Both the position numbers and the translations under genes were made by a program. The notes beneath the pieces are model-generated. The model saw only the letters and a list, made by a program, of their open reading frames with translations, was not told the origin of the DNA and ran no database searches. Of a DNA stretch of 64,000 nt, positions 3,978 to 64,000 are shown piece by piece (the stretch's first letter is position 1; every line of letters begins with the position of its first letter). Source of the DNA: Octopus vulgaris (lineage: Eukaryota); assembly GCA_951406725.2 (NCBI GenBank), contig OX597827.1, forward strand, positions 74,958,001 through 75,022,000, read 5' to 3'.

Positions 3978-4112
3978 TTTGCTGACAGTCGGAACCCATG
4001 CGTCCCATTGCACAGCCTCTAGGACATGCGCCATGAATCGGGTTGCAGGCGTCATTATTCATACAGTTACATCTTTTGGTGCAACGTAGTCCATATGTGC
4101 CTCCTTGGCAGA
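3978..4112 (-). CDS. EGF-like exon C1: [45 protein letters not shown]
   Basis: Minus strand tttgtttcacag|TCTGCCAAGG...TGTCAGCAAA|gtaagt; 135 nt, 8 Cys. Confidence 0.9.
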
Positions 4113-30072: not shown

Positions 30073-33000
30073 GAGTGAGAGAGCAGTGCATGCCATCAAA
30101 GTGACACTGGGGTAAAATATACGAAGCCCAGTATACACATCATGACTACCCGTCTGATAAGGGTACACATGCATCACAACTATATGTGCGCAACATGGTG
30201 ATCTCATATCAAGATAAATAGCGCAGACGACTATTTCAAGCAATTAGTTAGATGTCTTCAGGCACACAATCTTCTGCCATCTGCCTCCTAAGTACACGCT
30301 GTGCCACCCTTGCATACTTTGTTATCTTCCCTGTTAGCACACGTTCTTTGCCCATGTTAGTATACTATGTAGTCAACGTTGACAATACATGTTATTACTT
30401 CCCTTGTCATCACAAGTTGTCGTTCCCTGTGATGTACCCCTAGCTGTACCCCTTGTTAGTATACTTTGTTATGTTGTTAGCTTAGGCTGTTGTTTCTCTA
30501 GTTTGTATATCTTGTTGTCTCCCTTGTTTTTATATTTTGTTGAAAAAGCAAGTACATTGTTAGTACACTGTTCCATGTCACACACAGTACTGTCACCCTT
30601 GTTGGTAATCTTTGCTATATCTTGTATTAGCATCTCAGAATACATAACTAAAAAGAACAACAATTGCAATACACAATGACAACAGAAAGCAAACGTTATT
30701 AACCTTCTTTACAAGTGCCTGAAGTGAAACCAGGTGGACATCCATGTGGGCATATTCCAGTGACTCTGTCGCACACGTCCTTATCTCGACAGTTGCATTC
30801 CTCATTACAGCCAGAACCATACTTTCCAGGAGAACACTCTGAAAAGAACAATTTCTTTTAATATCCACCAGATTTGATGTTAAACAGACTCTGTTAAAGT
30901 TTAAAATATCAGATACACTTTACTGACTACATGAATTAAGAATTAGAAGAGACAAGTTAAAAGCTACCGAAAGAATTATGTGAAGGATTTCCTTACGATG
31001 CCATTTATCAAATGCTGTTTCTGTTATTGCGGAGTTCAGTTTAAAATCAGATACGATGAGCATATCTATAATAGTTGATCGAAAGAGTAAGTGCAAGTCA
31101 CAGATCTATTACACTTGATATACGAAGCCTTCACCACTTGGTGGGCCTTCGCACTAATACATCCTGAATATGAATTATTGTCAGTTGGGACATGTGTTTC
31201 TTTTTTTGCCCAGTCTATTTTTGTATGCTTGTCGGTTCAAGTGATGAACTCCTCGAGGACAAATGTGAAATCTAGAGAGCGCTTAAGGTGGTTCTTGGAG
31301 TTGTTTGGCCCCAAAACAATGACCACCCAGCTTATTTTCAGAGAGTGTATACAGTATCTGAATAGCTAAATTATCTTATGTATTCTTTCTTTGTATACGA
31401 GGGTAGTGTGTGATTTGAGGAAGATTTGGCTACTATTTCTTGCAGGTCAGGATTGTGTGTGTGTGTGTGTGTGTGTTTTCCTTGGACGGATATTCTCTTC
31501 AGAATAGTGTTGAAATTGTTGTTGCTTCGATCACTGTTAGCCTTGATCAGATATCTAAGGTATTCCGTCATTCGCTGTTGGTTTTAAGTGTAAAATATCT
31601 TTTTAAGATGGAGAATGCAATTTGAATGGCATTTGGCTGCTATTTTTAACAAATCAATCAATCCTACAAAATTTCTTTCATGGTCCTTTGGTGTTGTAGC
31701 AGTGTTGGGCTGTGTAACAGATATATTTGAAGGAGTATGAGAGATTGATATTGCAGTAGTTGTGAAGGCGTTGTATATGGAAATGTTTGCTAACGGAGTT
31801 ATAGAGATTGTAAGGGTTAGATTTTGCTGTACCAACACAATTTGTTCTTCGCTAGCTTTGGAGTGATTACATTTTTAGGGTTCACTTAGAATGAGGAATG
31901 AAAGTAACATATGAAGGTGATGCATATCTGTTATTGGAAGTTATGTGCAGTTTAAGATTAAAAGGAATGGGTAGAGTTCGGGTCTTTGTGGTAACTATAC
32001 GGAATTTCTCTTATATTTCATGGCTTAAATATTTTTAAAATCTTTACTCTTATCTAAACATATATTTTGAGTAACTACTATACCAATAGTTGCCCCTGTT
32101 AAGTACTACTCAACAAAATCGCATATGTCTGCTTATAAACTGTCCGCTCTACAAGTCAGACACTCAGACTTCAGAAATCCGATCCTTTTCTTCCAAAGAC
32201 TTGGTGGATTAAACTATCTTCTAATCTCTGTCATTAACTCTTTGTTGATTAATCCATTATCTCCAATTTGACAGAGAAATTAGGAGAGGTATTTTATTTC
32301 TTCCGAAACTGACCTTCTCTGATGTCTAAATTTACTTTTCTTTACTATATATGAACTTCTCTATTTTACGAATTTTAATAATCTTGTAATAATACCCAAA
32401 CTGGGCGTTGCAATACAATGATTTACCTCGAGGTGTAATTAGATGTGCCACGACAATAATACAATATTTTAAAGCAGAAAAGACAAAATAATGTACTTAA
32501 TATAAAGTACTTCCTTTATTTACTAGCATTACATGTAAAAAAATAGATTGAAGAAGAAATAAGGTATGTATAAATCTCATAAAGATGTGTTAAGTAGCTG
32601 TTTTTGTTTCGATTCTGTTTGAAAATTTAATTAAATATGACTAGATTTAATACATGCACATCTTCATCATTTTAAACTTTGTGTATCGTATCTCCCACTA
32701 AAAGCCGATTTTTTCAAGAAGGAAAAAAATATTGGATTAGTTCTATATTCTTGACGCCAAAAGGATGAAAGGAAAAATTGGTTTAATCGACTGATACTGA
32801 TATCTCCCAAATTTTTCGAAGTATGAAATCTACAGCTGAAAATGAATCTTTAATGTCTTCATAGTCGTATTTGCACTTTAAGATTGAGTGAGAATATAAA
32901 TTCCAACAGCTATAGTATTCTTGTAAGAAAATAGGTACGTTTATCTTTAATAAATTCAAACATTGAAATATATTGATAAAAATATCAATATCCGTTTCTC

Positions 33001-40698: not shown

Positions 40699-43600
40699 GA
40701 TAATAATAATAATAATAATGATAATGATGATGATGACAATGACGACGACGACGACGATAATGATGATTTTGCAACAAGGGCAGCAAGTTCGGGGTAGGTG
40801 ATGAGTTGATTTCATCGACCTCAGTACTCAACGACTACTTACTTTATCGACCCTGAAAGGATAAAAGGCAAAGTCGACTTGGGAGTAATTTGAACGTAAA
40901 GAAGAAGAAGGAGGAGGAGAGGAGGAGAAGTAGAAGAAGAAGAAGACGAACAACAACAACAACAACATGATCATCTTTATCATCATTAAGATATTTATGT
41001 ACTGAGTGCATTAGATACGGAGAGGTAACTTTACCTGTGTGGGTGTTACTTCCACAAATTTTAGGATGTTAAACATGTTTGTTGTTCACATTTACTTCCC
41101 TCAGTTTTCATTAATAATCTCTATATATATAAACGGCAAAATGTCTGCGTGCGTGTCCTTTATACAAATCCACAATTTTTCAGTTAGAGGGCTCGCACTT
41201 TCTATGGTCATTCAAAACCGTCCAAGGCTAGTCGAGCACATCTTTACATTTCCCCAGTCACCCTGTAAAGCCATTAAAAAATCAATAGAAGTGACTTTTT
41301 TGTGAATTTTCTTTCCAAAACCAATCAAAATGCCCAAAACTTGATATGCCAATTGAATGCCAGCTAGCTGTATGTGATTGGTCGGAGATTTGGACAGTAC
41401 TCGCGTGTATGTGTGCACGCACGCAGCTGTATATGCATGCACTAGCACTATGACCCGGCGTTGCCGGGTCATAGTGCTAGTTCAACATAACTCAATACTT
41501 AGCAAAATAAGTATTTATATACTTATGCCCTTGTAGAGAGTACGACAACTTGAATTAATCAATACATGTATATATACAATACCTATATACAATACATGTA
41601 TATAGGTGAGATAGACATTGTTAAAGTAAGATTATAACAATCAAAATTTTAAGTAAGACATCTCAATATCAAATAGAAAAAAATTTTTAATGAGTTTATG
41701 CACTTGTATCCCACTTAATTAAAGTTAAGAACAATCATGTGTGTGAGTTGTGGGGTTTTAGTTTGATTATTAGTATAGACATATACTTACGTTCCTGACA
41801 GTCGGAACCCCTGTATCCAGTTGCACAGCCTCTAGGACATGCACCATGAATCGGGTTGCAGTTGTCATCATCAATACAATTACATGTTTTGTTGCAATGT
41901 AGTCCATATGTGCCTTCATCGCAGACTGTAAAACAAACGTATTATACCTTATGTTGCATAAAACGGTAAAGAACTCCTTTCATAAATGAAAAGATGGAAA
42001 AAAATCAATGAATGACTGATGACCAAGACAACCATAATAGGAAATGATTTAACCAACTACGGCGCCTCAATATTTTCGATTGATCTGCTAGTAACAGCGA
42101 CCAAATCTTCCTCAAACAATACCCTGTTAGACTACAAACAAGAAACATTAAACAATGGAGACCTAAATATCTCTTAAGATGGCCACGGGTGGAATATCTA
42201 TAACCGTAGATCTTTCTAATCAGTCAGGATTCATCAGAATATAAACAACAGCAGTAATAGTGGTTGAATAACATAGGACTGCCTTCTCGATCTGAGTTTA
42301 CCTAAATGCAAATAACATCATCAGCAACAACAAAAGCAATGATATACAAATAAATAAGAAAGCCAATCTCTCAGCAATCGCTCAACTTCCTAGTACATCG
42401 TATCAACGAGGGAACTGACTTGGGCTTCATCTTTACCATAAAGTTTGAGGTCATCCATGAATAACAAGTGGTTGACTATTTGTTGCTGGCTTTTGAATAC
42501 ATACCCAGCTTTTGCTTTCCTGAGAATCAGCGTTAGTGGTATCAAGCACAGTACAAAGATCAATGGAGACAGGCAGTCCTCTTGGAAGATGCCTTTCTGA
42601 TTTCTACTTTCCCTAAACTTCTTTCGTATGCTGCCAGGTCCATCCTCCAATTCACCATACTTTTTCCAAGCAATCGCTCAACATTCGATGCAATACCAAA
42701 TAGGTTCATACATTCCATAATCCAAGAATGTAGGATCATATTGTACGCCTTACGATAGTCGATCCATGACATGGCTAAGTTACTTTTCCTCCTCTTACAG
42801 TCTCTAAAAACAGTTTTGTCTATCAGGAGTTGATCCTTGGTACCTCTGCACTTACGCTTGCAACCCTTCTGCTCATGTGGCAGGACTCCAAATTTTTTTC
42901 GAGATGTTCGTACATTGACTCTGCGAGTATTCCAGTTAATAATTTCCACGTAAGTGGCAAACAAGATATTGGCCAGTAGTTGTGTACCATATTGCCTTTT
43001 TCGATGTTTTTCAAGCACGGCACTGTCCTACCCAATGTCAACCACTCTGGTGTTACTTGGTCGGCATTTAACAAGGTGTTGATTTGTGCAGCTATTCATG
43101 CATAACATTCACCAAATCATTTGATCCAGTAGCCTTGAACTCCATCTGATCCCGGGGCCTTCCAGTTGCTCTTTGTTTTTTTTTTTGCTTATTTCCTTCA
43201 CTTTCCGTACTGAAATGACTAGTCCTGTCTGTTTTGGACAGACTACTGTTTGTTTCAGTTCTTGCAACCATAACCATTCAGCATCCTTTTCGTGCTCCTT
43301 ATCTTTGCTCCAGATGTCACTCGAACATCTTTGACTTTCATTGTTATCTGGTATCAACTTTTCATCTGTACATTCTCCATTTATTCCTTTATGGAATCTC
43401 TTCTGATCTACTCTGAATAACCCATGCTGGTGGTAACCCTTCATTCTTTGGTCATATCTTACCATCTTTGCTTTCTTTGCAATGAAGTGCTGTTTCAGTT
43501 CTTCTATTACCACTTTCAGGCCCTTTCTTTCAGTATCATACTTCCTGTTCGGTGTCATGTATTTTTATTCGTTTTTAAGTAACCTCTTCTCTTTTCGGTT

Positions 43601-48800: not shown

Positions 48801-51800
48801 TGACGGGGTAATTTTCAGTCAAATGAGGAAAAGAATTACACTAGGCCAATCACAGAAGGCCAGATAAATTCTGTCAGGTGAAGTCCTAACATAAAATTCG
48901 TCCATAAGTGATTTGAACTAAATATATTCACTTTGAAATTACTTCATAATTCCAATGGTATAATCAGTTGTTTCATACTCACATGCTTGACAGTTTATAC
49001 CCTGATATCCAGCAACACATCCATGAGCACACTGACCATATATTGGGTTGCAACTGTCGTCATTACAATGACAGGTTTTACTACAGTTATCTCCATATGT
49101 GCCTTTAGGGCATGCTGAAAAAAACCCAGAAGAAACACATTTTAACTTACGAATTTATTGTTGCCTTTTAAATATCAGTAACAGAATATTACTGGCATCA
49201 TAGTCGACGCCAGCTGAAGGCAGAAACATATTCTCTTGCAAATTTCACAGAGATTTCCTGAAGCTTCCAGATGGTTTGTTTCATTCACAAGGCTTGAATC
49301 AAACCAGGACTTTCACAGAAGATATTTGCCAAACTTTTTTTGCATCGAAATCGAACCTTAAACAAGCTAAACTAGCTTCTTAATAAATCAACCAACCCAA
49401 AACTTTGTAAAGTCAAAAACTTTAACCAACAGAAATCTAAAAATGTATAAGACAGACGACTATTTCAAACAATTAGTTAGATGTCTTCAGGCACACAATC
49501 TTCTGCCATCTCCCTCCTTAGTACACGCTGTGCGACTCTTGCATACTTTGTTATCTTCCCTGTTAGCACACGTTCTTCGCCCATGTTAGTATACTATGTA
49601 GTCAACGTTGATAATACATGTTATTACTTCCCTTGTCATCACAAGTTGCCGTTCCCCTGTGATGTACCCCTTGCTGTACCCCTTGTTAGTATACTTTGTT
49701 ATGTTGTTAGCTTAGGCTGTTGTTTCTCTAGTTTGTATATCTTGTTGTCTCCCTTGTTTTTATATTTTGTTGAAAAAGCAAGTACATTGTTAGTACACTG
49801 TTCCATGTCACACACAGTACTGTCACCCTTGTTGGTAATCTTTGCTATATCTTGTATTAGCATCTCAGAATACATAACTAAAAAGAGCAACAATTGCAAT
49901 ACACAATGACAACAGAAAGCAAACGTTATTAACCTTCTTTACAAGTGCCTGACGTGAAACCAGGTGGACATCCATGTGGGCATTTTCCAGTGACTCTGTC
50001 GCACACGTCATTATTTCGACAGCTGCATTCCGAATTACAGCCAGTACCATACTTTCCACCAGGACACTCTGAAAAGAACAACTTCTTTTAATATTCACCA
50101 GATTTGACGTTACACAGACTCTGTTAAAGTTTAAATATCAGATTCACTTTACCGACTACATGAATTAAGAATTAGAAGAGACAAGTTAAAAGCTACCGAA
50201 AGAATTATGTGAAGGATTTTCTTACGATGCCATTTATCAAATGCTGTTTCTGTTATTGCAGAGTTCAGTTTAAAATCAGATACGATGAGCATATCTATAA
50301 TAGTTGATCGAAAGAGTAATTGCAAGTCACAGATCTATTACACTTGATATACGAAGCCTTCACCACTTGGTGGGCCTTTGCACTAATACATGCTGAATAT
50401 GAATTATTGTCAGTTGGGACATGTGTTTTTTTTTTTGCCCAGTCAATTTTTTGTATGCTTGTCGATCCAAGTGATGAACTCCTCGAGGACAAATGTGAAA
50501 TCTAGAGAGCGCTTAAGGTGGTTCTTGGAGTTGTTTGGCCCCAAAACAATGACCACCCAGCTTATTTTCAGAGTGTATACAGTATTTGAATAGCTAAATT
50601 ATCTTATGTATTCTTTCTTTGTATAAGAGGGTAGTGTGTTGTTTGAGGAAGATTTGGCTACTATTTCTTGCAGGTCAGGATTGTGTGTGTGTGTGTTTCC
50701 CTGGATGGATATTCTCTTCAGAATAGTGTTGAAATTATTGTTGCTTCGACCACTGTTAGCCTTGATCAGATATCTAAGGTATTCCGTCATTCGCTGTTGG
50801 TTTTAAGTGTAAAATATCTTTTTAAGATGGAGAATGCAATTTGAATGGCATTTGGCTGCTATTTTTAACAAATCAATCAATCCTACAAAATTTCTTTCGT
50901 GGTCCTTTGGTGTTGTAGCAGTGTTGGATTGTGTAACAGATATGTTTGAAGGAGTATGAGAGATTGATATTGCAGTAGTTGTGAAGGCGTTGTATATGCA
51001 AATGTTTGCTAATGGAGTTATAGAGATTGTAAGGGTTAGATTTTGCTGTACCAACACAATTTGTTCTTCGCTAGCTTTGGAGTGATTTAATTTTTAGGGT
51101 TCACTTAGAATGAGGAATGAAAGTAACATATGATAGTGATGCATATCTGTTATTGGAAGTTATGTGCAGTTTAAGATTAAAAGGAATGGGTAGAGTTCGG
51201 ACCTTTGTGGTAACTATACTGAATTTCTCTTATATTTCATGGCTTGAATATTTTAAAAATCTTTACTCTTATCTAAACATATATTTTGAGTAACTACTAT
51301 ACCAATAGTTGCCCCTGTTAAGTACTACTCAACAAAATCGCATATGTCTGCTTATAAACTGTCCGCTCTACAAGTCAGACACTCAGACTTCAGAAATCTG
51401 ATCCTTTTCTTCCAAACACTTGGCGGATTAAACTATCTTCTAATCTCTGTCATTAACTCTTTGTTGATTGATCCATTATCTCCAATTTGACAACGAAATT
51501 AGGAGAGGTGTTTTATTTCTTCGGAAACTGACCTTCTCTGATGTCTAAATTTACTTTTCTTTACTATATATGAACTTCTCTATTTTACGAATTTTAATAA
51601 TCTTGTAATAATACCCAAACTGGGCGTTGCAATACAATGATTTACCTTGAGGTGTAATTAGATGTGCCACGATAATAATACAATATTTTAAAGCAGAAAA
51701 GACAAAATGATGTACTTAATATAAAGTACTTCCTTTATTTACTAGCATTACATGTAAAAAAAAATTGATTGAAGAAGAAATAAGGTACATTTATCTTTAA

Positions 51801-54800
51801 TAAATTCAAACATTGAAATATATTGATAAAAATATNNNNNNNNNNNNNNNNNNNNNNNNNNNNNNNNNNNNNNNNNNNNNNNNNNNNNNNNNNNNNNNNN
51901 NNNNNNNNNNNNNNNNNNNNNNNNNNNNNNNNNNNTCCTGTTCGGTGTCATGTATTTTTATTCGTTTTTAAGTAACCCCACCTGTATTCTTCTACATTTT
52001 TTGCTACCATGGATTTTTTTTCTTTTTGTCACTGCCCATTGATATATCTTGTTTCTGTAATGTAATGACTTTCGGGAGCATACTTAACCCCACCTGTATT
52101 CTTCTTTTCTACCATGGATTTTTTTTCTTTTGTCACTCCCATTATATATCTTTTTCTTGACATCATCATCTACATTTTCTGCTACAGCAATACTTGCTGC
52201 CTTGATCAAATTTTTGTTTCTGTAATGTTTTTTTGTTCTCGTGTATTTCAGAATTTCATGTCTCTCATCGAGCAAGTTATCACTGTTCCTTTCCTGTGGT
52301 TTATTAGAGATCTCACCTCTGCTTTCTACTATGAGATTACTTTTATCAGTAAGAACAGCATTTTCATCGTTTCCTCTACTGCTGTTTCCCAATACCCGTC
52401 TTTTGATAGCTTCGAGCTATACTTCCGGGAACCAACGATTTTTTTTCTTATTTCTCTATCTTGATCACATAATCTCTGTTCTGTGTATTGAAACTATCCT
52501 CTCTCTTTCTTTGATCATACATAAGTTGTCGGTATCCCCTAATATATGAACAATATTTTCGTCTACAGGGTTAGGGTTGCTCAGGTAGTAACATTCCATG
52601 ACCACAGCATTGATTTGTTAGTTCCATCTAATCTGTGTGGTCGGATCCCTTGCTGGATAACGACAGGCTGGAGTCAGGCCTGTAGCTCTGAGCCTGCCAA
52701 GTGCAACGCTGTCACAATCATGGATTTCAGTTTCATTACTACCATTATTCACAATATTTTTCATCGTCACTCATATGAGATAGCGATTATCAGATTGCAC
52801 AATTACCAGTGTTTTTATTGTGACCCCATCACTAGATGTACCATCAATCAGGACATGGGAAGTTTCCAATCGCTAAGCAGCTAATATGAAACCTTCACTC
52901 TCTGCTTTTAGCCCTGAACTTCGTAACCATTGGTGCGTGTGTTTCTGGTCGATATCAGCTTGTTTGCTACAGGCCACATACTTGCCATGGAAAGGTTTCG
53001 GTTCCCATCTGCTAGCTAAATTTTCATGTGCTTTTGTCTTTGCAATTAATTTTATTTTCTTTGCAGCTGTAGTTGGCGCATTTCCTTCAGCCTGCTCAAT
53101 CTGGTGGGTATCTAAGAGATCAGCAGCAAATTTTTTGCTCTCTTTGAGAATAGAATGAATTTTTTTAGGCCTTTCATGTTTTTCAACAAGTTTTAGCATC
53201 CAATCGTTGGTTGCTTCAAGGTATTTGGACAGTCCAATTGTTGTGGTTTTGTATGTAAGTTCAAGCTGGATCAAACCTCGACCTCCCTGAGCTCTGGGAA
53301 GGTAAAGGCGATCCACGTCTGCCTTTGGATGGTGCATCTTATTACAAGTCAGTAGCTTGCGGATTTTCCTGTCAATTTTCATCATTATTAGTATTATTAT
53401 TATTATTGAGTGAGAGAGCAGTGCATGCCATCAAAGTGACACTGGGGTAAAATATACGAAGCCCAGTATACCCATCATGACTACCCGTCTGATAAAGGTA
53501 CACCAGGCACATACATCACAACTATATGTGCGCAACATGGTGATCTCATATCAAGATAAACAGCGCATTACCTTGCAGGTGGGGCACAGTTAGAATTTTC
53601 TTCTGGTCGAGTAACACATCCCACTCAAAAGGTCTCTGAATAAAGGTTGTTTAAGGATGTTGAACAAAACACCCTTTCTAGTTTTGTTAGCCACTCTGCG
53701 CTTTCTTTATATCTCGCCGGCTTTTTCTACAGTCTTCCTCCAAATTCTTTACTTTCTTCCGCATCTCAAATCAGTTCTTAGTGTTGGCGTCCCTCTGTTT
53801 CCTCATATAGATGCCTTCTATTTTATTGGAACAGTCTATGCTATTCGAAACCTTTGCATTTATCATCATTTTTTTTATTAATTTGGCTTTTTTTTGTGTC
53901 AATTCTTCCATCCGTTTCATATTCTTCCTGTTTTACCCTTTCATTACCGCTCTCTGCTACCGTTGTTTCACTCTCCTTCTGCTAATTTATTATTATGTTT
54001 CTCTGAATTTCTTCAATCTCTACTGCCATAACCCAGTCGTCCCCACATATTACTCTTATTAGTCTATCAGTCACAGGGCGGATGCTTCAAAGCCTCCTTT
54101 CTTCATCCAAATATTCTCTTTATTTGATTCATGAAGCCTCTTTTATTTGGCTCACTTCTCAGCCAGTATTCGATTACTATTTAGTTTACTTCTTTTCGCA
54201 TTTCATTCTTTTTATTTTGCACTTTTGACTGCGACTTTGGTCCTGACCAATAGCTTGATGACAATCTGCCAGAACTTGACCAGATACTCCCTGCCTGCCG
54301 AGCGCGACATCTTTACCTTTTACATTTCCAGTCCTGTTAGTGCAGTTGTGGTTACTATTTAATTTTGACATCACTCATTTAGAGGTACCATTTGTAAGAT
54401 TGTGCAACCACCAGTATTTTTATTGTGACACCATCACTAGGTGAGTTGCTAGTCAAGGCTCCGATAGTCCACATCAACCCTCGTGTACAGTGTTTAGTGT
54501 CATTCTTGTTCATTCCAATGTTTTATATTTTTATATTTGACATTTTCACTCCTGGGAATTTTTGTTAAGGCGGCTAGCTGGTAGAGTCGTTAGCACGTTG
54601 GACGAAATGCTTAATAGTATTTCACCCATCGTTACATTCTGAGTTCAAATTCCATCGAGATCGACTTTGCCTTTCCTGCTTTCAGGGTTGATAAATTAAG
54701 AACCAGCGGAGACACTGGGGTCGATGTATTCGACTGGTCCCCTCCCCAAAACTTCAGGCCTTGTGCCTTTACTAGAAAAAGATAATTGTTGTTGTTGTTT

Positions 54801-57800
54801 TTGTTATCTCAACTGAATCACAAGTGTCGAATCGTCGTGAGACTAAACCAGCAACTCCCACAGAACCTGCTCTGTGGAGAGTGTATTTTTCTTGCTATTT
54901 GCTAACCCTTCAGGATGAAATACAAGCCTGTTGAAGAGTAGATGAACTCAGGGGAGTCAGCGGTCACCTACACAGCAACTTTTCATTAGTTGTGCATCCG
55001 ATTAGATCATTACCGCTCAGAGTACTGGGTTGGTGTACAATGCAAATAGCTTACTTAAACTTTCAAAGGTAATGGCTGGAAAATTTCCCAGAATTATACA
55101 AAAGAATAGATATGCAAATGGATAAAATGATCAACAACAGGGTATAAATCCCAAAATGCATTACCACAGGGAAAATAGCTCTTTACCAAAGACGACTCCA
55201 GTAAATGTAATGCAGTGGAAAATTACCGGCCATTCTCCTACTTACTACTGATTTGGAATTTGATGTCAGGAATGTAACTAACTGTGCGTATGACATGCTG
55301 AAAATAACTGACAAGCTGCCAGTGGAACAGCAGAGATGCACATAGGCATTGATATGTAGTACCCAGGAACAAACGCTGAGAAATAATTACTCCAAGGTCC
55401 AAATAGACAAGAACAATGAATCGCTCCTTTGTGGGTTTATGGCATCAAAAAAACGAAATAATCTCACATATTGTGAGTGAATTTAGCAAACTAATCCAAA
55501 AGGAATACAAAAAGAGGCACGATAACAGGGCTAAGTTTGTTCACTAGATATTGCATGAGAAGTATGGTCTTGAAAGAACACAGACAAAGCCTGCTAAAAT
55601 ATAGTAGACTACTATAGAACAACACACAGAAAATACTAAAGGCAGTGAATAGAGAGCAGGTGGTCAAATGTGGAAATAGGAGGAAAAGACGAAAATGATA
55701 TTCAAAGAGAGCATTATAAACAGATTGAAAAAAAAATCTGCATGGTCAGTATTTGAAAGCCACTGAAGATGTACGTGAAACAAAAATCTGGGCTTCATTA
55801 AAAACAAAAGGGCATTTAAAAAAGAAACAGAGTGCCTTGTTAAAACAGCTGAAGATAAAGCAATAAAAACAAATAATTTGAAAAAATATGTGTATGGGGA
55901 GGTGTCAGCAAAATGTAAAGTGTGAGGTATTTGAGATAAAACAATGGTGCACATTGTTGCAGAATATCCCAGGTTGGCTCATACAGAATATACGAAATGG
56001 AGACATGACCAAGTATTGCAAGTTTTTCACTGGGCGCTTCATCAGAAATGGGGATTTGAAGCTCAAAGTACTTGGTATCACCATTGGGTTGAGAGGGTGC
56101 TTGAGTCGGAGAAAGCAAGATTTTATGGGATTTTCCCATTCAAACAGATAAGAAGCTAGGAAACAGTAAACCAGATATAACAATAATAGACAAGGAAAGG
56201 CGAAGTTGCTTACTAATTGATCCATCGTGTCCGTTCGATTCCAGGATTGTTAAGAAAGAAGAAAAACATTTTAAAATCCAATCCTTTAAAATTTGCAATT
56301 GCGAGAATTTGGAGCATGAAATATGTAAAGGTTGTTCCTGCAATAATTGGTGCATTAGGATCTGGGAGTAAGGATATAGATGAATGGTTGGGAGAGATTG
56401 GAATAGAATGTCCTGAAGAGCTTCCACAGAGAGTTTGCCTCTTATGGACAGGAAAAATTATCAGAAGGGTTTTCAGCACTTGAAAGATTAACGAAAGCTT
56501 GAGGATATATAAAGTTACTGGTAGTAACCCATTACCCACATAAATTCTAGCAAGAATAAGAACGAACCTGAGTCAAATAATATCTTTTATTGTTAGAGGA
56601 ACAACAAAAGAGTCGATTTCGCAAGGACAAATTAGAAAGCGAAACAAAAAATATACTTGAAAAGAAAATCCTCAAGAGAGTAGGTTGGCGGGGTAATTTT
56701 CAGTCAAATGAGGAAAAGAATTACACTAGGCCAATCACAGAAGGCCAGATAAATTCTGGCAGGTGAAGTCCTAACATAAAATTCGTCCATAAGTGATTTG
56801 AACTAAATATATTCACTTTGAAATTACTTCATAATTCCAATGGTATAATCAGTTGTTTCATACTCACATTCTTGACAGCTTTTACCCCGATATCCAGCAA
56901 CACATCCATGAGCACAAGTACCATATGCTGGGTTGCAACTGTCGTCAATACAATGACACTGTTTATGACATTTATCTCCAAATGTGCCTTTAGGGCATAC
57001 TGAAAAAAATAACAGAAGAAACACGTTTTAACTTACGAATTTATTGTTGCCTTTTAAATATCAGTAACACAATACTACTGGCATCATAGTCAACGCCAAC
57101 TCAAGACAGAACCATATTCTTTTGCAAATTTCACAGAGATTTCCTGAAGCTTCCAGATGGTTTGTTTCATTCACAAGGCTTGAATCAAACCAGGACTTTC
57201 ACAGAAGATATTTGCCAAACGTTTTTTGCATCGAAATCGAACCTTAAACAAGCTAAACTAGCTTCTTAATGAATCAACCAACCCAAAACTTTGTAAAGTC
57301 AAAAACTTTAACCAACAGAAATCTAAGAATGTATAAGACAGACGACTATTTCAAGCAATTAGTTAGATGTCTTCAGGCACACAATCTTCTGCCATCTCCC
57401 TCCTTAGTACACGCTGTGCGACTCTTGCATACTTTGTTATCTTTCCTGTTAGCACACGTTCTTCGCCCATGTTAGTATACTATGTAGTCAACGTTGACAA
57501 TACATGTTATTACTTCCCTTGTCATCACAAGTTGTCGTTCCCTCTGATGTACCCCTTGCTGTACCCCTTGTTAGTATACTTTGTTATGTTGTTAGCTTAG
57601 GCTGTTGTTTCTCTAGTTTGTATATCTTCTTGTCTCCCTTGTTTTTATATTTTGCTGAAAAAGCAAGTACATTGTTAGTACACTGTTCCATGTCACACAC
57701 AGTACTGTCACCCTTGTTGGTAATCTTTGCTATATCTTGTATTAGCATCTCAGAATACATAACTAAAAAGAACAACAATTGCAATACACAATGACAACAG

Positions 57801-57953
57801 AAAGCAAACGTTATTAACCTTCTTTACAAGTGCCTGAAGTGAAACCAGGTGGACATCCATGTGGGCATATTCCAGTGACTCTGTCGCACACGTCCTTATC
57901 TCGACAGTTGCATTCCTCATTACAGCCAGAACCATACTTTCCAGGAGAACACT
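3978..57953 (-). CDS. Partial multi-exon gene: multiple EGF-like (laminin-EGF type) repeat protein, MEGF10/CED-1/SCARF-like ectodomain; 10 exons visible, both ends outside the window or not found
   Basis: Ten 132/135-nt exons with a polypyrimidine-AG acceptor and GT donor, all phase 1-1, no internal stops, each with 8 Cys in the pattern C-x2-G-x-[YF]-G-x2-C-x3-C-x-C-x4/5-C-x4-G-x-C-x2-G-C-x2-G-x5-C. Junction codons from A3 to C1 are all sense (GCA, TTC, CAG, GTC, CAG, GTA, TTC). That they form one transcript is inference. Confidence 0.8.
4578..6593 (-). mobile_element. Degenerate R4/Dong-like non-LTR retrotransposon, 5' part to RT core (paralogs 26676-28697, 42390-44414, 51936-52873)
   Basis: Frameshifted RT motifs [31 protein letters not shown], WIDYx[25 protein letters not shown]. 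Confidence 0.9.
6594..7103 (-). mobile_element. Remnant of a second R4/Dong-like element (3' end deleted in copies 1 and 4; paralog 52873-53382)
   Basis: [21 protein letters not shown]...HGKY...[18 protein letters not shown]. Confidence 0.9.
7128..8160 (-). mobile_element. Internally deleted R4/Dong-like element next to (TAA)n (paralogs 45818-46860, 53408-54440; truncated at 30072-30225)
   Basis: N-terminal-like peptide on the minus strand; 5' sequence (gtgacaccatcactag) similar to that of the 4578-6593 element; abuts a TAA repeat. Confidence 0.55.
8290..8505 (+). mobile_element. tRNA-derived SINE, present in copies 1 and 4 (54567-54785), absent in copy 3
   Basis: GGCGGCTAGCTGGTAGAGTCGTTAG A-box region, GAGTTCAAATTCC B-box, GATCGACTTTGCCTTTC core. 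Confidence 0.85.
8790..10300 (+). mobile_element. Degenerate, internally deleted R4/Dong-like LINE with restriction-like endonuclease (paralogs 46965-48690, 55068-56580)
   Basis: [47 protein letters not shown]...[20 protein letters not shown]. Confidence 0.85.
10590..10721 (-). CDS. EGF-like exon B1: [44 protein letters not shown]
   Basis: ttatttttttcag|TATGCCCT...CAAGAAT|gtgagt; 132 nt; lies within ORF-track entry 10546..10746. Confidence 0.9.
11541..11675 (-). CDS. EGF-like exon A1: [45 protein letters not shown]
   Basis: ttgttcttttcag|AGTGTTCT...AAAGAAG|gttaat; 135 nt; the ORF track reports a different frame here. Confidence 0.88.
13590..14030. mobile_element. Two old degenerate SINE remnants in opposite orientations
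   Basis: aaaaggatgaaaggaaaaattgac (minus) and gaagttcaaattctgttgac...tttccatccttcc (plus) resemble the SINE core. Confidence 0.45.
14163..14232. repeat. (GTA)n/(GCA)n microsatellite (also 33728-33787, 60441-60519)
   Basis: Direct reading. Confidence 0.95.
14445..16250 (+). mobile_element. 5'-truncated CR1-group LINE (RT), three single-site frameshifts, (ATT)n tail
   Basis: [77 protein letters not shown]. Confidence 0.95.
16253..16378. repeat. (ATT)n followed by (AAT)n, a self-complementary microsatellite pair (also 35801-35866, 62543-62654)
   Basis: Direct reading. Confidence 0.95.
16530..18460 (+). mobile_element. Degenerate L1/Tx1-like LINE 5' part: ORF1 and start of APE endonuclease (paralogs ~36030-37710, ~62810-64000)
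   Basis: ORF1-like ...[18 protein letters not shown]; [31 protein letters not shown] matches the APE N-terminal motifs (NVRGL, xET). Confidence 0.65.
18460..18960 (-). mobile_element. L1/Tx1-like APE endonuclease fragment, opposite orientation (paralog 37710-38200)
   Basis: [12 protein letters not shown]...[10 protein letters not shown]...FRLVALYIP; the copy-2 paralog reads [31 protein letters not shown]. Confidence 0.7.
19072..19168. repeat. (CT)n(AT)n microsatellite (paralog 38324-38433 has different lengths)
   Basis: Direct reading. Confidence 0.95.
19422..19950 (-). mobile_element. Solo LTR (529 bp) with 4-bp TSD
   Basis: TGTA...TACA ends; GTTG duplicated at 19418-19421 and 19951-19954; single GTTG at the empty site 38681-38684; AATAAA on the minus strand near 19550. 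Confidence 0.85.
19951..21460 (-). mobile_element. Degenerate L1/Tx1-like ORF1 region (paralog 38685-40190)
   Basis: Same peptide as 1-950 plus a low-complexity N/T/K-rich tail; oriented toward the minus-strand APE fragment. Confidence 0.5.
22556..25500 (+). mobile_element. Two head-to-tail Helitron-like copies (22556-24029 and 24030-25500)
   Basis: Exact junction ...GATACTGCTAG|TCTCTTATTATAAAAGG; each carries the piggyBac fragment. Confidence 0.85.
26076..26210 (-). CDS. EGF-like exon C2: [45 protein letters not shown]
   Basis: tttgttttacag|TCTGCGAA...CAGGAAC|gtaagt; 135 nt, 8 Cys. Confidence 0.9.
28730..30040 (-). mobile_element. 5'-truncated R4/Dong-like element with Zn knuckle and RLE, inserted in (TAA)n (paralog 44470-45775)
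   Basis: [54 protein letters not shown]; TAA repeats on both sides. Confidence 0.92.
30704..30838 (-). CDS. EGF-like exon A2 (identical to A1 by eye)
   Basis: Same splice sites and sequence as 11541-11675. Confidence 0.88.
33994..35800 (+). mobile_element. CR1-group LINE, copy 2 (stops and frameshifts)
   Basis: Same RT motifs, with in-frame TAA/TGA and small deletions. Confidence 0.95.
41791..41925 (-). CDS. EGF-like exon C3: [45 protein letters not shown]
   Basis: tttgttttacag|TCTGCGAT...CAGGAAC|gtaagt; 135 nt; 3 nt different from C2. Confidence 0.9.
48983..49114 (-). CDS. EGF-like exon B3: [44 protein letters not shown]
   Basis: gggtttttttcag|CATGCCCT...CAAGCAT|gtgagt; 132 nt, 8 Cys. 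Confidence 0.9.
49934..50068 (-). CDS. EGF-like exon A3: [45 protein letters not shown]
   Basis: ttgttcttttcag|AGTGTCCT...AAAGAAG|gttaat; 135 nt, 8 Cys. Confidence 0.88.
51836..51935. other. Assembly gap (100 N)
   Basis: Run of N; exactly 100 N usually marks a gap of unknown size. Confidence 1.
56868..56999 (-). CDS. EGF-like exon B4 (identical to B1)
   Basis: Same sequence and splice sites as 10590-10721. Confidence 0.8.
57819..57953 (-). CDS. EGF-like exon A4 (identical to A1)
   Basis: Same sequence and splice sites as 11541-11675. Confidence 0.8.
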
Positions 57954-60458
57954 CTGAAAAGAACAATTTCTTTTAATATCCACCAGATTTGATGTTAAAC
58001 AGACTCTGTTAAAGTTTAAAATATCAGATACACTTTACCGACTACATGAATTAAGAATTAGAAGAGACAAGTTAAAAGCTACCGAAAGAATTATGTGAAG
58101 GATTTCCTTACGATGCCATTTATCAAATGCTGTTTCTGTTTTTGCGGAGTTCAGTTTAAAATCAGATACGATGAGCATATCTATAATAGTTGATCGAAAG
58201 AGTAAGTGCAAGTCACAGATCTATTACACTTGATATACGAAGCCTTCACCACTTGGTGGGCCTTCGCACTAATACATCCTGAATATGAATTATTGTCAGT
58301 TGGGACATGTGTTTCTTTTTTTGCCCAGTCTATTTTTGTATGCTTGTTGGTTCAAGTGATGAACTCCTCGAGGACAAATGTGAAATCTAGAGAGCGCTTA
58401 AGGTGGTTCTTGGAGTTGTTTGGCCCCAAAACAATGACCACCCAGCTTATTTTCAGAGAGTGTATACAGTATCTGAATAGCTAAATTATCTTATGTATTC
58501 TTTCTTTGTATACGAGGGTAGTGTGTGATTTGAGGAAGATTTGGCTACTATTTCTTGCAGGTCAGGATTGTGTGTGTGTGTGTGTGTGTTTCCTTGGACG
58601 GATATTCTCTTCAGAATAGTGTTGAAATTGTTGTTGCTTCGACCACTGTTAGCCTTGATCAGATATCTAAGGTATTCCGTCATTCGCTGTTGGTTTTAAG
58701 TGTAAAATATCTTTTTAAGATGGAGAATGCAATTTGAATGGCATTTGGCTGCTATTTTTAACAAATCAATCAATCCTACAAAATTTCTTTCGTGGTCCTT
58801 TGGTGTTGTAGCAGTGTTGGGCTGTGTAACAGATATGTTTGAAGGAGTATCAGAGGTTGATATTGCAGTAGTTGTGAAGGCGTTGTATATGCAAATGTTT
58901 GCTAACGGAGTTATAGAGATTGTAAGGGTTAGATTTTGCTGTACCAACACAATTTGTTCTTCGCTAGGTTTGGAGTGATTTAATTTTTAGGGTTCACTTA
59001 GAATGAGGAATGAAAGTAACATATGAAGGTGATGCATATCTGTTATTGGAAGTTATGTGCAGTTTAAGATTAAAAGGAATGGGTAGAGTTCGGGTCTTTG
59101 TGGTAACTATACGGAATTTCTCTTATATTTCATGGCTTAAATATTTTTAAAATCTTTACTCTTATCTAAACATATATTTTGAGTAACTACTATACCAATA
59201 GTTGCCCCTGTTAAGTACTACTCAACAAAATCGCATATGTCTGCTTATAAACTGTCCGCTCTACAAGTCAGACACTCAGACTTCAGAAATCCGATCCTTT
59301 TCTTCCAAAGACTTGGTGGATTAAACTATCTTCTAATCTCTGTGCATTAACTCTTTGTTGATTAATCCATTATCTCCAATTTGACAGCGAAATTAGGAGA
59401 GATATTTTATTTCTTCGGAAACTGACCTTCTCTGATGTCCAAATTTACTTTTCTTTACTATATATGAACTTCTCTATTTTACAAATTTTAATACTCTTGT
59501 AATAATACCCACACTGGGCGTTGCAATACCATGATGTACCTCGAGGTGTAATTAGATGTGCCACGACAATAATACAATATTTTAAAGCAGAAAAGACAAG
59601 ATAATGTACTTAATATAAAGTACTTCCTTTATTTACTAGCATTACATGTAAAAACAAATTGATTGAAGAAGAAATAAGGTATGTATACATCTCATAAAGA
59701 TGTGTTAAGTAGCTGTTTTTGTTTCGATTCTGTTTGAAAATTTAATTAAATATGACTAGATTTAATACATGCACATCTTCATCATTTTAAACTTTGTGTA
59801 TCCTATCTCCCACTAAGAGCCGATTTTTTCAAGAAGGAAAAAAATATTGGATTAGTTCTATATTCTTGACGCCAAAAGGATGAAAGGAAAAATTGACATT
59901 AGTGGTATTTGAAATCACTGTACAAATATTCTTAAGAAATACTGCAAGGTACCCTATTCGATGTTTTAACACCTCTGCCTCTTCTGCGTCTATTGGCATT
60001 CATTATATTGGGAAAGTCATTTTTTATGTCAGGAATGTAGTGCAATGAAATTACCTGTGAAGTATATTACTGACACAGAAAAAAGATACTAAATTTAAAG
60101 AATTGTTACAGTGTATTGCAAAATCCTTGCAGTATTTAGCTTTGGCCATTTAAGTCTAAAGTTCAAATTCTGTTGACATTAACTCCACTTTCCATCCTTC
60201 CAGAATTAATAATATTAAAAAAAATTTACCAATACCGGAATTGGTTTAATCGACTGATACTGATATCTCCCAAATTTTTTGAAGTATGAAACCTACGACT
60301 GAAAATGAATCTTTAATGTCTTCATAGTCGTGTTTGCACTTTAAGATTGAGTGAGAATATAAATTCCAACAGCTATAGTATTCTTGTAAGAAAACACCCA
60401 GGAATTATTAACTTTGAAACATATTCTACAAAATGTTAACGTAGTAGTAGTAGTAGTA

Positions 60459-60502
<44 letters not shown>

Positions 60503-60729
60503 CCAGTAGCAGCAGCAGCAGGAGAAGGAATTCAAAAACTGGTGGAAGATACGGGGTAATTTATACTCAGAGCAGAGACGATCCGGAATGCGACAGAGTG
60601 GTTACTTCTAAAGGCAGCCAAGGAGTAGGTCATGATGTTAAAATGTGTAGTAGTAGTAGTAAGTATAATTTTTATGGCCGCCCTACTAAGGAGACACGGT
60701 ACCTCGAAGCTCAGTATGTTGTAGTAGTG

Positions 60730-62540
60730 CTTGAATTTGAACAGTGCATAGCAGCCAATCCTGACAGCAAGGTTTTCTGGATATATGTGCATTCAAAGCA
60801 GAGACCTCACTCTCCAGTGGGCCCTCTTCGCAACCCTCACACAAATCAGATCACTGACGACCCCAAGGAACGCGCAGAACTCATTGCCGAGTGCTATTCA
60901 AACATATTCACTGTTGAAAGTCAAAATGTACCATCTTCACCATCACTAACAGCAAATTCCATAACAACTATGGAATTTACACCTGCAATGCTGCGACGTC
61001 ACCTTCAAAATAAGTGCAACTATGCCTCCCCTGGTCTTGATGGAGTTACATACCTGCTTCTCAAACGTGGCAGGTACTTCCTTTTATACCAGCTTTCTAT
61101 TTTCTTCCAGTACTCTCTCAACAATGGTGCTACTCCGGAGCAGTGGAAAACTGCCAGTGTCATTCCTCTGTTCAAAAAGGGCGACCGCACATCACCTGTC
61201 AACTATCCCCCAGTCAGTCTCACTAGCTGTATTGCAAAACTGATGGAATCGTGTGTCAGAGAAACACTCTGGAACTTCTGGAGCTCTCACAGTCTCATCC
61301 GACCCTCACAATATGGATTTGTCCCTGACTCCAGCTGCAGTGATCAGCTTGTCGAGTTCCTTGAGGACATTACTCAGATCACTGACAGTGGCTCATGGGT
61401 GGATGTTGTCTACCTTGACTTTGCTAAGGCTTTCAACTCTGTGCCACACAAAAGGCTTATGGTGAAACTCTCTGCAATGGGTGTGAGGGATGACCTTTTT
61501 AACTGGTTGAAATCCTTCATTCTTAGCCGAAAGGAGGTAGTCACAGTTCTAGGACAGCATTCTACACCATATGAGATGTCATCGGGTGTACCACAGGGAT
61601 CTGTCCTTGGTCCCCTCTTGTTTGTGGCATACATTAATGACATAGATGCCAATTTAAAGAATGCCACAATATTGAAATATGCAGACGACATCAAGCTGTA
61701 CCTTGAAATCAAGAGGACAGATCCTGATGTCTACAACTCTTTCCTGCAATCAGACCTAGACACAATGCAGCAATGGATCACAGACTGGCAACTGAAACTG
61801 GCTGTGGACAAGTGTACCACCATGCATTTTGGGAGAAAAAACCCTGCGTCCACATACTCCCTCCACAACACTGATATCAAGAAATCCTCCTGCGAGCGTG
61901 ACCTAGGCATCACTGTCAGCAGTGATTTGCGTTGGACAAAGCATATCTCTAAAATTGTCGAGAAGGCCGAGGGTGTCTTGGCATCATTCAGCAAGACTTT
62001 TCTTTGCCACTCTCCAGCCATCTATTTAAAACTGTATACAGCTATGGTACGACCACACTTGGAATTCGCATCATCAGTTTGGAACCCCTATCTTGCTCAG
62101 AACATTGACCTCCTGGAATCTGTCCAGAGACGTGCAACCAAACGCATACCCTCCATCAGACACCTACCATATTCTGAGCGCCTTGTTTCCCTGGGCATGG
62201 ATTCACTGAAGCTCCGGCGTCTGGCGACGGACTTGATAAGCACCCACAGAGTTATCAACCACCTCACCAACAACAACACTGAACGCCTTCTTGATCTCCA
62301 TGTGTCTAACACATGTGGACATGCCTACAAAGTCAGAAAACAACACAGCTACCATGACTTTCGGGAACGTTTTTTCACGCTCAGAGTTGCTGAAGCATGG
62401 AATAAACTGCCTGCGTCAGTTGTTGACTGCCATGACACTACATCCTTTAAGGCCCTCATGCTTTCCGAAATCCGCCGAAACTACACCTGATTGTATATAC
62501 ACTTTAGATGAGTTGTAGTGCACCTGAGCACTGTACACAA
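60730..62540 (+). mobile_element. CR1-group LINE, copy 4: 5'-truncated but uninterrupted RT frame (630-aa ORF 60598-62490)
   Basis: ORF track; full RT motif set; no endonuclease domain. Confidence 0.95.
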
Positions 62541-62571
<31 letters not shown>

Positions 62572-62573
62572 AA

Positions 62574-62655
<82 letters not shown>

Positions 62656-64000
62656 TTTTTCGGAATTCTAAGGCACCGTTCTTTCGTTTCTTTTATCACC
62701 ACCTTGTTTCTGACATTGCCTGGACTGCGCGAATAGTTTTTTTGCTTAGTAATGCATTCTGTTTTGCGGGAGATGCGCATCAATTTTTTTTTTTTCCCGC
62801 CAACTAATGGAGAAGACAAATATTTTCTTATTTTACATATATATTGAAACATAGCTGATAAAGAATTCATTATAATGTTCAACGACGGGATGCGTTCCTT
62901 GTCGGAGAAAAAAGAGAATACTGGCATACCATTGACTACAGTATGTGACCACCGTGCCAGCGAAAAAGAAAACCGAGTTGAATATATTTTCGTCTCTAAA
63001 CAATGCTGAAACAGTGAAGTAGCAATTAAAGAAAACATACGAAGACGACGGCGACGATGACGACAACAACAACGTCGACAGCAATACCGATAATAACGAA
63101 GTGAAAGTTAAAGAAGGAAAGATAAACAAAGAAAATTTTAAAGGAAACGTGAACATCACTACCGCCATAGACGCCACAACAGTCTCCGCTGCAGCCGCTA
63201 AAGCAGCAAGGGATCCTGGAATTGGGATTTTTTTTATTTTATTTATTTTTTTTTTTGTAAATGCTACGAGAAATCTTGAAGATTTCCCCATCGACGAAGA
63301 AGAATTGAAATTGGCCCAAAAAATCGTTCAAAGAAATAGAAGAGAAGTTGCCCAAAACTCTCCACTCGACGTGATCGGAAACATCTTAAGATACTCGGTT
63401 ACATACTGCTGCATTGGAGTAAAATCGCTCCGAATGAAAAATGTTTCTGACAGCTAAATCCAGAAATGCTTTGAATGCGTGTGACAATAGAAGACCCACA
63501 TCATCCGAGGAAAGAAATTTTGGACGATTGAAGCTATTGCAGCTAACACCTTGCTAAAGTTGTGGTGATGAACGTGAAATATCGCCAGAAATATCCATCG
63601 CCAGAGGGATATGTCGCCAGATGGTTAGTGACCGCTGTCTTGGCAAGTATAGAGGAAGACAACGTGACTATCTTGGTGGTAAAGAAAATACCTCAACAAA
63701 ACTGGTCCTGTATAGGTATGAAACTAACATTACAATGTATGCAAACCTATATCGACGAGCTACCTAACCTAATAGGCCTCCCGGATGGTACTCACCTGTC
63801 AGTGTTAATGGAGGGTAGAAAACCAAGATGCTATATTTATGACTCATTGAAAGTTTTTCGGCCCTCAAGCAAGGAAAACAAAACTCCCACTGCTACCAAC
63901 ACCACAAACACAAAATCATGGAGACGAGCTCAAGATTGCTTCGCCCACACCAATACAAAGAAGTCTACTCCCGGCTACCACGGAAATCAAGCTTCACCTG

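What the first reader, a model, noticed from the sequence alone, without database searches (positions are those of the whole stretch)
49934..50068. Exon A shows the same replacement excess independently
A1 vs A3: 11 nt differences give 8 amino-acid changes (S/P, P/G, S/T, E/S, N/S, D/N, K/N, I/K) and one synonymous change (ACT/ACG). Changes cluster in the N-terminal two-thirds, while [16 protein letters not shown] is invariant. A1, A2 and A4 are identical, so this exon type has both homogenised and diversified copies.
Basis: seen in the sequence. Interest (0 to 1): 0.7.

Follow-up and report, generated by a model that had tools for sequence, protein, structure and literature searches.

The report
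Fast-diversifying EGF repeats in octopus receptor
In an octopus gene for a predicted cell-surface receptor, eight copies of a three-exon EGF unit differ at up to 43% of their amino acids while their introns and silent sites differ by only a few percent, which likely means natural selection gave the copies different binding surfaces, probably against parasites or microbes.

Summary
The count is right: A1 versus A3 differs at 11 bases, 10 replacement and 1 silent, changing 8 residues. Alone it is not significant (P 0.15-0.26). A4 is probably A1 assembled twice across a gap, so it is no evidence of homogenisation.

The wider claim holds strongly. The exon belongs to an array of eight A-B-C units of 8-cysteine EGF exons in an Octopus lectin-EGF receptor tyrosine-phosphatase gene; both phosphatase domains lack the catalytic cysteine. 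Across 23 exons there are 133 replacement and 19 silent changes (P 6e-6), and a site model gives omega about 8.6 at 44% of codons. Units U1 and U2 differ at 56 of 131 residues but at 1 of 75 unchanged codons, with introns 1.5-2.8% apart. All cysteines are kept, and RNA-like contigs show splicing. Introns are scrambled by exchange between units; exon types persist in O. sinensis. A neighbouring EGF array shows no such excess.

Best reading: diversifying selection on the modules of one recognition receptor, likely immune. The family is known from snail schistosome-resistance loci; this within-gene diversification and the dead phosphatase were not found in the papers searched.

The parts
49934..50068 (-). 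Exon A3 (unit U3): 135-nt phase 1-1 exon, one 8-Cys MEGF/SCARF-type EGF module; the finding
   Evidence: spliced to B in run X6 (joint 49934/49114, CT..AC on +); O. sinensis P0005 differs at 1 of 44 residues
48983..49114 (-). Exon B of unit U3 (132 nt, 8 Cys)
41791..41925 (-). Exon C of unit U3 (135 nt, 8 Cys)
   Evidence: C-to-A joints in X6 and X17
30704..30838 (-). Exon A2 (unit U4); this unit has no B exon and joins a U5-type A to a U3-type C, as expected from unequal crossover
26076..26210 (-). Exon C of unit U4
11541..11675 (-). Exon A1 (unit U5)
10590..10721 (-). Exon B of unit U5
3978..4112 (-). Exon C of unit U5
51836..51935 (.). 100-N assembly gap flanked on both sides by the two copies of a 46.1-kb duplicate
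51936..64000 (.). Start of the probable false duplicate of window 5719-51835 (99.3-99.5% identical); holds A4 (57819-57953) and a second B of U5 (56868-56999)

Best explanation
The exon is one module of an eight-unit EGF array in a predicted octopus lectin-EGF receptor with a likely inactive phosphatase tail, and selection likely drove its modules apart to give different binding surfaces, probably for parasites or microbes. Shown: the unit count after removing the duplicate, the replacement excess, kept cysteines and splice sites, splicing in RNA-like contigs, mosaic introns, exon types shared with O. sinensis, and loss of the catalytic cysteine. Inferred: a three-exon unit was amplified by unequal crossover. 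Replacement changes were then fixed fast in the loops between cysteines. Exchange between units keeps mixing the introns, while tracts that would overwrite an exon with another type are mostly removed; short exchanges still move residues between modules of one class. Inferred with less support: the gene is one transcript from lectin to phosphatase, it signals by binding or trapping phosphoproteins rather than by catalysis, and the selective agent is a parasite or microbe. Odds: selection on the exons about 0.9; intron exchange about 0.85; immune role about 0.5.
For: Minimum changes over 23 exons, counted in favour of silent paths: 133 replacement, 19 silent, P=6e-6. Single-base steps only: 80 to 9, P=5e-5. 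Without U2/U6: 75 to 10, P=4e-4. Own codon model: M1a versus M2a 2dL=56.9, omega 8.6 at 44% of codons; exon A alone P=0.0017. U1 versus U2: 56 of 131 residues, 98 nt, 1 silent change in 75 unchanged codons (0.016, upper 95% 0.09); introns 1.5-2.8%. Silent-variant density 0.083 matches introns 0.076; replacement density in A is 0.43. 8 of 8 Cys kept in 23 of 23 exons. Variable positions correlate across A, B and C (mean rho 0.23, P=0.02). Intron sites are 45-52% four-gamete incompatible against 3% (A) and 15% (C) in exons. Long-intron distances (2.0-4.6%) ignore exon type. O. sinensis exons differ at 12 of 480 residues, 9 of them states found in another unit here. Runs X1, X2, X3 and X19 all hold the U2/U6-type A exon with 3-6 differences in 199 nt. 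Control array 0.9 Mb away: 25 to 7, P=0.34. Architecture. Same architecture in snail resistance loci (PMC12297450, PMC13712769, passages).
Against: Exon A alone is only modestly significant by counts (P=0.024) and not without U2/U6 (P=0.07); C alone without U2/U6 gives P=0.16. Site models are inflated by recombination, which is present; mine is a home-made GY94 fit on FastTree trees with naive posteriors. Silent sites are few (about 108). Multi-base codon changes are common, and introns show more adjacent variable sites than chance (24 versus 14). No single contig or model links the array to the transmembrane and phosphatase exons; database models split the gene (P0016, P0002, P0005, P0038). 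No signal-peptide exon was found. Tissue of expression is unknown, and nothing here tests a ligand or an immune role.
Confidence: 0.65

Rival explanations
1. The exon types are old and diverged at ordinary rates; conversion erased intron differences, so the exon-intron contrast is an illusion of homogenised introns.
For: Introns are clearly recombined and star-like. Types predate the vulgaris-sinensis split and have barely changed since. Model-based tree dS for A and C (0.19, 0.28) is 2-3 times the intron variant density. One intron variant is carried by the collapsed contig of X2 and X19 but by 0 of 7 units here, a weak hint of concerted change.
Against: Silent sites inside the exons, a few bases from the changed codons, are as similar as the introns: 1 of 32 fourfold sites and 1 of 75 unchanged codons for U1 versus U2. 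Old types would carry many more. Homogenisation can enlarge the contrast with introns but cannot make dN exceed dS.
Confidence: 0.12
2. Same selection, but the agent is reproductive or self-recognition: the receptor works in gamete binding or in tissue or neuronal self-discrimination.
For: Rapidly evolving repeat proteins with EGF or F-lectin modules occur in marine gamete recognition (recalled, not tested). The tail is catalytically dead and has a long K/E repeat. Splice joints were strong in 1 of 4 runs laid and faint in one more.
Against: Species-specific recognition predicts divergence between species; here only 3 of 480 residues are new between vulgaris and sinensis while paralogous modules differ by up to 43%. 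The closest described family members are tied to parasite resistance.
Confidence: 0.15
3. A mutational process confined to these exons (templated micro-conversion from other donors, RNA-editing imprint, or a targeted mutator) makes the changes, with selection only filtering them.
For: The divergence stops within a few bases of the exon edges. 29 of 57 differing codons in U1 versus U2 differ at 2-3 bases. Changes are rich in transversions (65 of 106).
Against: A mutator would also hit silent sites, which stay at intron level. No A/G bias (27 of 106). The longest exact run shared between exon classes is 14 nt. No close A-like donor was found elsewhere in the genome. A diverged donor would bring silent changes with it.
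Confidence: 0.05
4. Relaxed constraint or assembly error: the array is a dispensable spacer or pseudo-exon set and the differences are noise.
For: The region has a false duplication with 86 indels and two frameshifted exon copies. Unit U4 lacks B.
Against: Relaxation gives omega up to 1, not above it. All 184 cysteines are kept. The variants recur in O. sinensis proteins and in four independent runs.
Confidence: 0.03

Closest known systems
Biomphalaria MEGF/galactose-binding-domain receptor PTPs: B. sudanica SudRes1 (PMC12297450, passages) and B. glabrata LG5R subgroup 1C (PMC13712769, passages)
   Same: Extracellular multiple EGF plus galactose-binding/fucolectin domain, one transmembrane helix, tandem PTP domains, clustered paralogues, variable EGF number.
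   Different: Here one gene carries 23 recently amplified EGF exons with measured omega well above 1, and both PTP domains lack the catalytic Cys. The passages read report extracellular diversity and EGF loss, not within-gene selection or dead domains. No orthology was tested; no phenotype is known in octopus.
Bivalve and abalone lectin-EGF RPTPs (P0003, P0008, P0009, P0011, P0030) and the O. sinensis paralogue P0035
   Same: Same domain order. P0035 shares the N-terminal EGF-lectin layout and also lacks the D1 cysteine.
   Different: The bivalve and abalone proteins keep VHCSAG in D1. P0035 has a short stalk with no amplified array.
SCARF1/SREC-I, MEGF10/CED-1/Draper, Tie2 EGF repeats
   Same: 8-Cys EGF repeat type; best solved-structure match is SCARF1 (8hna, E 1.2e-7); atlas neighbours are mollusc MEGF10-like clusters.
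   Different: No EMI domain seen in the models scanned; the tail is a tandem PTP, not a short signalling tail.
Accelerated exon evolution in snake venom-related gene arrays (PMC6609765, passages; conotoxins and PLA2 recalled)
   Same: KA above KS, introns far more alike than exons, cysteine scaffold kept.
   Different: Those are separate secreted paralogues; here the diversified copies are modules of one predicted membrane protein.
Homogenised repeated introns in spidroins (PMC9779670, passages)
   Same: Repeated introns about 96-98% alike within one gene; higher-order repeat units.
   Different: Spidroin coding repeats are homogenised too; here the coding repeats are driven apart.

Membership tests
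Mollusc MEGF/GBD receptor-like PTP (SudRes1, LG5R subgroup 1C) | Multiple extracellular EGF repeats | tested here: met
   23 array exons plus 4 single EGF-like exons
Mollusc MEGF/GBD receptor-like PTP (SudRes1, LG5R subgroup 1C) | Galactose-binding/fucolectin domain | tested here: met
   PF22633 45 bits and PF00754 34 bits, above cut-off, in P0016; exons at C14:75126397 and 75106400
Mollusc MEGF/GBD receptor-like PTP (SudRes1, LG5R subgroup 1C) | Single transmembrane helix | tested here: met
   76-nt AG/GT exon at C14:74876155-74876080 with a hydrophobic 19-residue window of 2.7; predicted only
Mollusc MEGF/GBD receptor-like PTP (SudRes1, LG5R subgroup 1C) | Tandem intracellular PTP domains | tested here: met
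   PF00102, 2 stretches, in orthologue P0038; its exons map in order downstream on the same strand
Mollusc MEGF/GBD receptor-like PTP (SudRes1, LG5R subgroup 1C) | All parts in one transcript with a signal peptide | tested here: inconclusive
Mollusc MEGF/GBD receptor-like PTP (SudRes1, LG5R subgroup 1C) | Clustered paralogues; neighbouring antistasin gene | tested here: inconclusive
   7 further PTP exons within 1.6 Mb on C14; antistasin not searched
Catalytically active classical PTP | P-loop cysteine in D1 | tested here: not met
   Exon junction reads VVQS-SNGVGRSG, the same in O. bimaculoides P0038, against VHCSAGVGRTG in PTPRS
Catalytically active classical PTP | WPD-loop aspartate and pTyr-loop tyrosine | tested here: not met
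   WPE and KNRD
Catalytically active classical PTP | Measured phosphatase activity | not testable with these tools
   needs an assay
MEGF10/CED-1/Draper | N-terminal EMI domain and short non-enzymatic tail (features recalled) | tested here: not met
   No EMI hit in P0016 or P0002; PTP tail downstream
F-type lectin | Fucose-binding His/Arg/Arg motif (recalled) | tested here: inconclusive
   By eye two Arg are present, while the His and Asp positions look replaced; no reliable model
Accelerated-evolution (venom-type) exon pattern | KA above KS, with KS about equal to intron divergence and cysteines kept | tested here: met
Concerted evolution of repeats (spidroin type) | Coding repeats homogenised along with introns | tested here: not met
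   Introns 2.0-4.6% apart, coding types up to 44% of residues apart

The most novel reading that the evidence does not exclude
A single octopus receptor carries a built-in repertoire: 23 selection-diversified EGF modules on symmetrical exons, reshuffled between copies in the germline and possibly skipped by splicing, read out through a dead phosphatase that traps or tunes its active neighbours. This would be a cephalopod route to variable immune or self recognition distinct from Dscam, FREPs and protocadherins.
Probability: 0.12. Interest if true: 0.8.

Novelty: new variant of a known kind. Interest (0 to 1): 0.52.

Why it matters
Cephalopods have few identified variable recognition receptors. 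This gene shows venom-like diversification (56 of 131 residues changed with 1 silent change) among modules of one predicted membrane protein, in a family tied to schistosome resistance in snails. It points to the EGF loops, not the lectin domain, as the surface under selection, and marks the codons to test. It also separates two processes in one locus: exchange that mixes introns and selection that keeps exon types apart. As a practical point, 46 kb of this assembly is probably present twice.

Tried and rejected
Single-sequence AlphaFold of P0002 was unusable (pLDDT 38), so no fold search was run. The representative-protein search never ran (queue full at 7 tries), so no outgroup EGF array was obtained; the only O. 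bimaculoides protein found (P0038) covers the cytoplasmic part. A Pro/Thr-rich stretch repeated in each unit looked like a fourth exon but has stops and frameshifts in all frames. Contig depth as a copy-number test of the duplicate was rejected: ratios differ between runs and not all types were laid. No RNA holder was listed on record; X6, X14, X17 and X20 are RNA only by guess or by their splice joints. RNA-editing imprint and cross-class donors were not supported. Pfam gives the single exons no hit above cut-off. Counting each multi-base codon change as one event (109 to 9) favours replacement and is not relied on. Paper searches for this gene or pattern gave 0 papers and nothing relevant in the listings; the library lacks most subscription journals. 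Earlier-finding look-ups by place, words and sequence were blank.

Full report
Observation. The coordinates hold a 135-nt exon on the minus strand, with an AG acceptor and GT donor, phase 1 at both ends. With about 103 replacement and 29 silent sites, 10 to 1 is not significant: Fisher P=0.26, or 0.15 with the intron transition bias. The exon does exceed its flanking introns, 8.1% against 2.7%, P=0.002.

Setting. The window is G000:C14:74958001-75022000 in a 2.8-Gb genome. P0016, labelled Octopus vulgaris, matches the neighbouring exons letter for letter, so I take that as the species. In 460 kb around the window there are 30 array exons: 11 A, 9 B and 10 C. A 46.1-kb stretch ending exactly at the gap is repeated from the first base after it, at 99.5% identity, with 69 mismatches and 86 indels, 56 of them in homopolymers. 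Two exons in the right-hand copy carry 1-nt frameshifts. I read this as one locus assembled twice (inference, about 0.8). I dropped those 7 exons, including A4, and kept 23 exons in 8 units, U1-U8 in gene order: A3 is U3, A2 is U4, A1 is U5. U4 lacks B. Keeping the dropped copies would not change the variant counts, apart from the frameshifts.

The gene. Upstream lie an EGF-like exon, two unassigned exons, an EGF exon, two exons of an F5/8-type C or fucolectin-like domain and one more EGF exon. Downstream lie a terminal EGF exon, a predicted transmembrane exon, a long charged-repeat exon and two PTP domains. All are on one strand in the order seen in mollusc homologues and in the O. sinensis paralogue P0035. 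D1 has Ser at the catalytic Cys, WPE and KNRD; D2 has Gly there. O. bimaculoides P0038 has the same changes, so the dead state is old. Seven neighbouring D1 exons on C14 keep VHC and WPD. Run X6 shows an A-to-B joint with canonical ends, a C-to-A joint and loose ends matching B-to-C; X17 shows one faint C-to-A joint; X14 and X20 show none in the rows listed. The loose-end consensus at the end of exon C is, letter by letter, a mix of an A exon and the terminal EGF exon, with agreement 0.82 against 0.817 predicted (compared by eye).

Selection. Minimum changes per codon column, resolved in favour of silent paths: A 41 replacement to 7 silent (P=0.024), B 48 to 3 (P=1e-4), C 44 to 9 (P=0.047), together 133 to 19 (P=6e-6). 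Using only single-base steps, which removes multi-base mutation as an explanation, gives 80 to 9 (P=5e-5). Without the most divergent type it is 75 to 10 (P=4e-4), though A alone then falls to P=0.07 and C to 0.16; the copies inside the window give 42 to 7 (P=0.02). My codon model gives M0 omega 2.8, 13.7 and 2.1, and M2a over M1a at 2dL=56.9 with omega 8.6 at 44% of codons; recombination can inflate this test. The extreme pair, U1 versus U2, differs at 56 of 131 residues and 98 bases but at 1 of 75 unchanged codons, with introns 1.5-2.8% apart. Silent-variant density (0.083) equals intron density (0.076), while replacement density in A is 0.43. All 8 cysteines persist in all 23 exons, and net charge per module ranges from -5 to +4. 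The same positions tend to vary in A, B and C, notably the loop at codons 17-21 (P=0.02). A control array 0.9 Mb away, 14 same-length exons of 25 with splice ends, shows 25 to 7 (P=0.34) and no exon excess over flanks (its downstream flank alignment is noisy). The pattern is therefore not generic to EGF arrays here.

Exchange between units. Exons fall into types, U1/U5, U2/U6 and U3/U7, suggesting an earlier three-unit duplication. Intron distances are star-like and ignore type. Intron sites are 45-52% incompatible with any single tree, more so when far apart, against 3% and 15% in exons A and C. O. sinensis models hold the same types: 12 differences in 480 residues over 11 exons matched to their nearest unit, 9 of them states present in another unit here; the lectin domain differs at 1 of 152. 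Four runs labelled as four organisms all hold the U2/U6-type A exon with 3-6 differences. The types thus predate the vulgaris-sinensis split, given as 2.5 million years (PMC10700109, passages), and since then have mostly been shuffled rather than changed.

Mechanism. Amplification by unequal crossover gave redundant modules; selection fixed replacements in the inter-cysteine loops; continuing exchange mixes introns, while exon-overwriting tracts are mostly purged. That silent sites within exons match the introns argues that the burst was real and fast, not only revealed by homogenised introns. Some extra age for the types is not excluded (upper 95% dS 0.09). Stasis between species with divergence among modules fits a repertoire of binding surfaces better than a species-specific gamete lock. 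The immune role is borrowed from snail family members and is untested here.

What is known. The architecture is that of Biomphalaria MEGF/GBD receptor PTPs in resistance regions (PMC12297450 and PMC13712769, passages; supplements not opened, and they may report dead domains or selection tests). Exons outrunning introns is known from snake gene arrays (PMC6609765, passages); homogenised repeated introns from spidroins (PMC9779670, passages). Conotoxins, MHC and oyster bindin are recalled, not read. Searches found no description of this gene, of within-gene diversifying selection in this family, or of its dead phosphatase; the library is incomplete.

Verdict. The underlying signal is strong and well controlled. 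It is a new variant of known kinds; interest 0.52.

Noticed in passing
window 5719-51835 versus 51936 onward (G000:C14:74963719-75009835 and 75009936-75056154): 46-kb probable false duplication across the scaffold gap; the right copy has 1-nt frameshifts in one A and one C exon.
   Followed up: yes
L022 (G000:C14 about 74863800-74859950, minus strand): A roughly 3.8-kb cytoplasmic exon of Lys/Glu-rich tandem repeats (45-nt unit x20, 36-nt unit x52) between the membrane helix and the PTP domains, with frameshifts in A runs as assembled; the O. bimaculoides model starts after the repeats.
   Followed up: partly
L018, L017, L015 (G000:C14:74825961-74796885): Both PTP domains lack the catalytic cysteine, as in O. 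bimaculoides P0038; paralogue P0035 and a C9 exon (L060) also read VVQS, suggesting an octopus clade of receptor pseudophosphatases.
   Followed up: partly
L052-L058 (G000:C14:73.28-74.73 Mb): Cluster of at least seven further PTP D1 exons with intact VHC and WPD, several identical in protein, and many EGF exons; the array near 74.01-74.08 Mb has a mirror copy near 74.28-74.33 Mb on the other strand.
   Followed up: partly
L061-L068 (G000:C14:74013764-74080231): Two-exon EGF repeat array of a neighbouring gene; no significant replacement excess; one 129-nt-type copy at 74054502 has lost its acceptor AG.
   Followed up: partly
window 30224-30703: Unit U4 lost exon B by a deletion starting about 480 nt after exon A2, giving an A-to-C chimera of U5 and U3 types.
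   Followed up: partly
L029 (G000:C14:74931698-74931832): Exon A of U7 is a three-part mosaic: U3-like start, U1-like middle, and a U2-like lysine codon near the end.
   Followed up: partly
window 47000-48600, 52500-53400 and their copies: Decayed retroelement (LINE-like) fragments in the introns were amplified along with the units; intron lengths vary from 4.5 to 15 kb through insertions.
   Followed up: no
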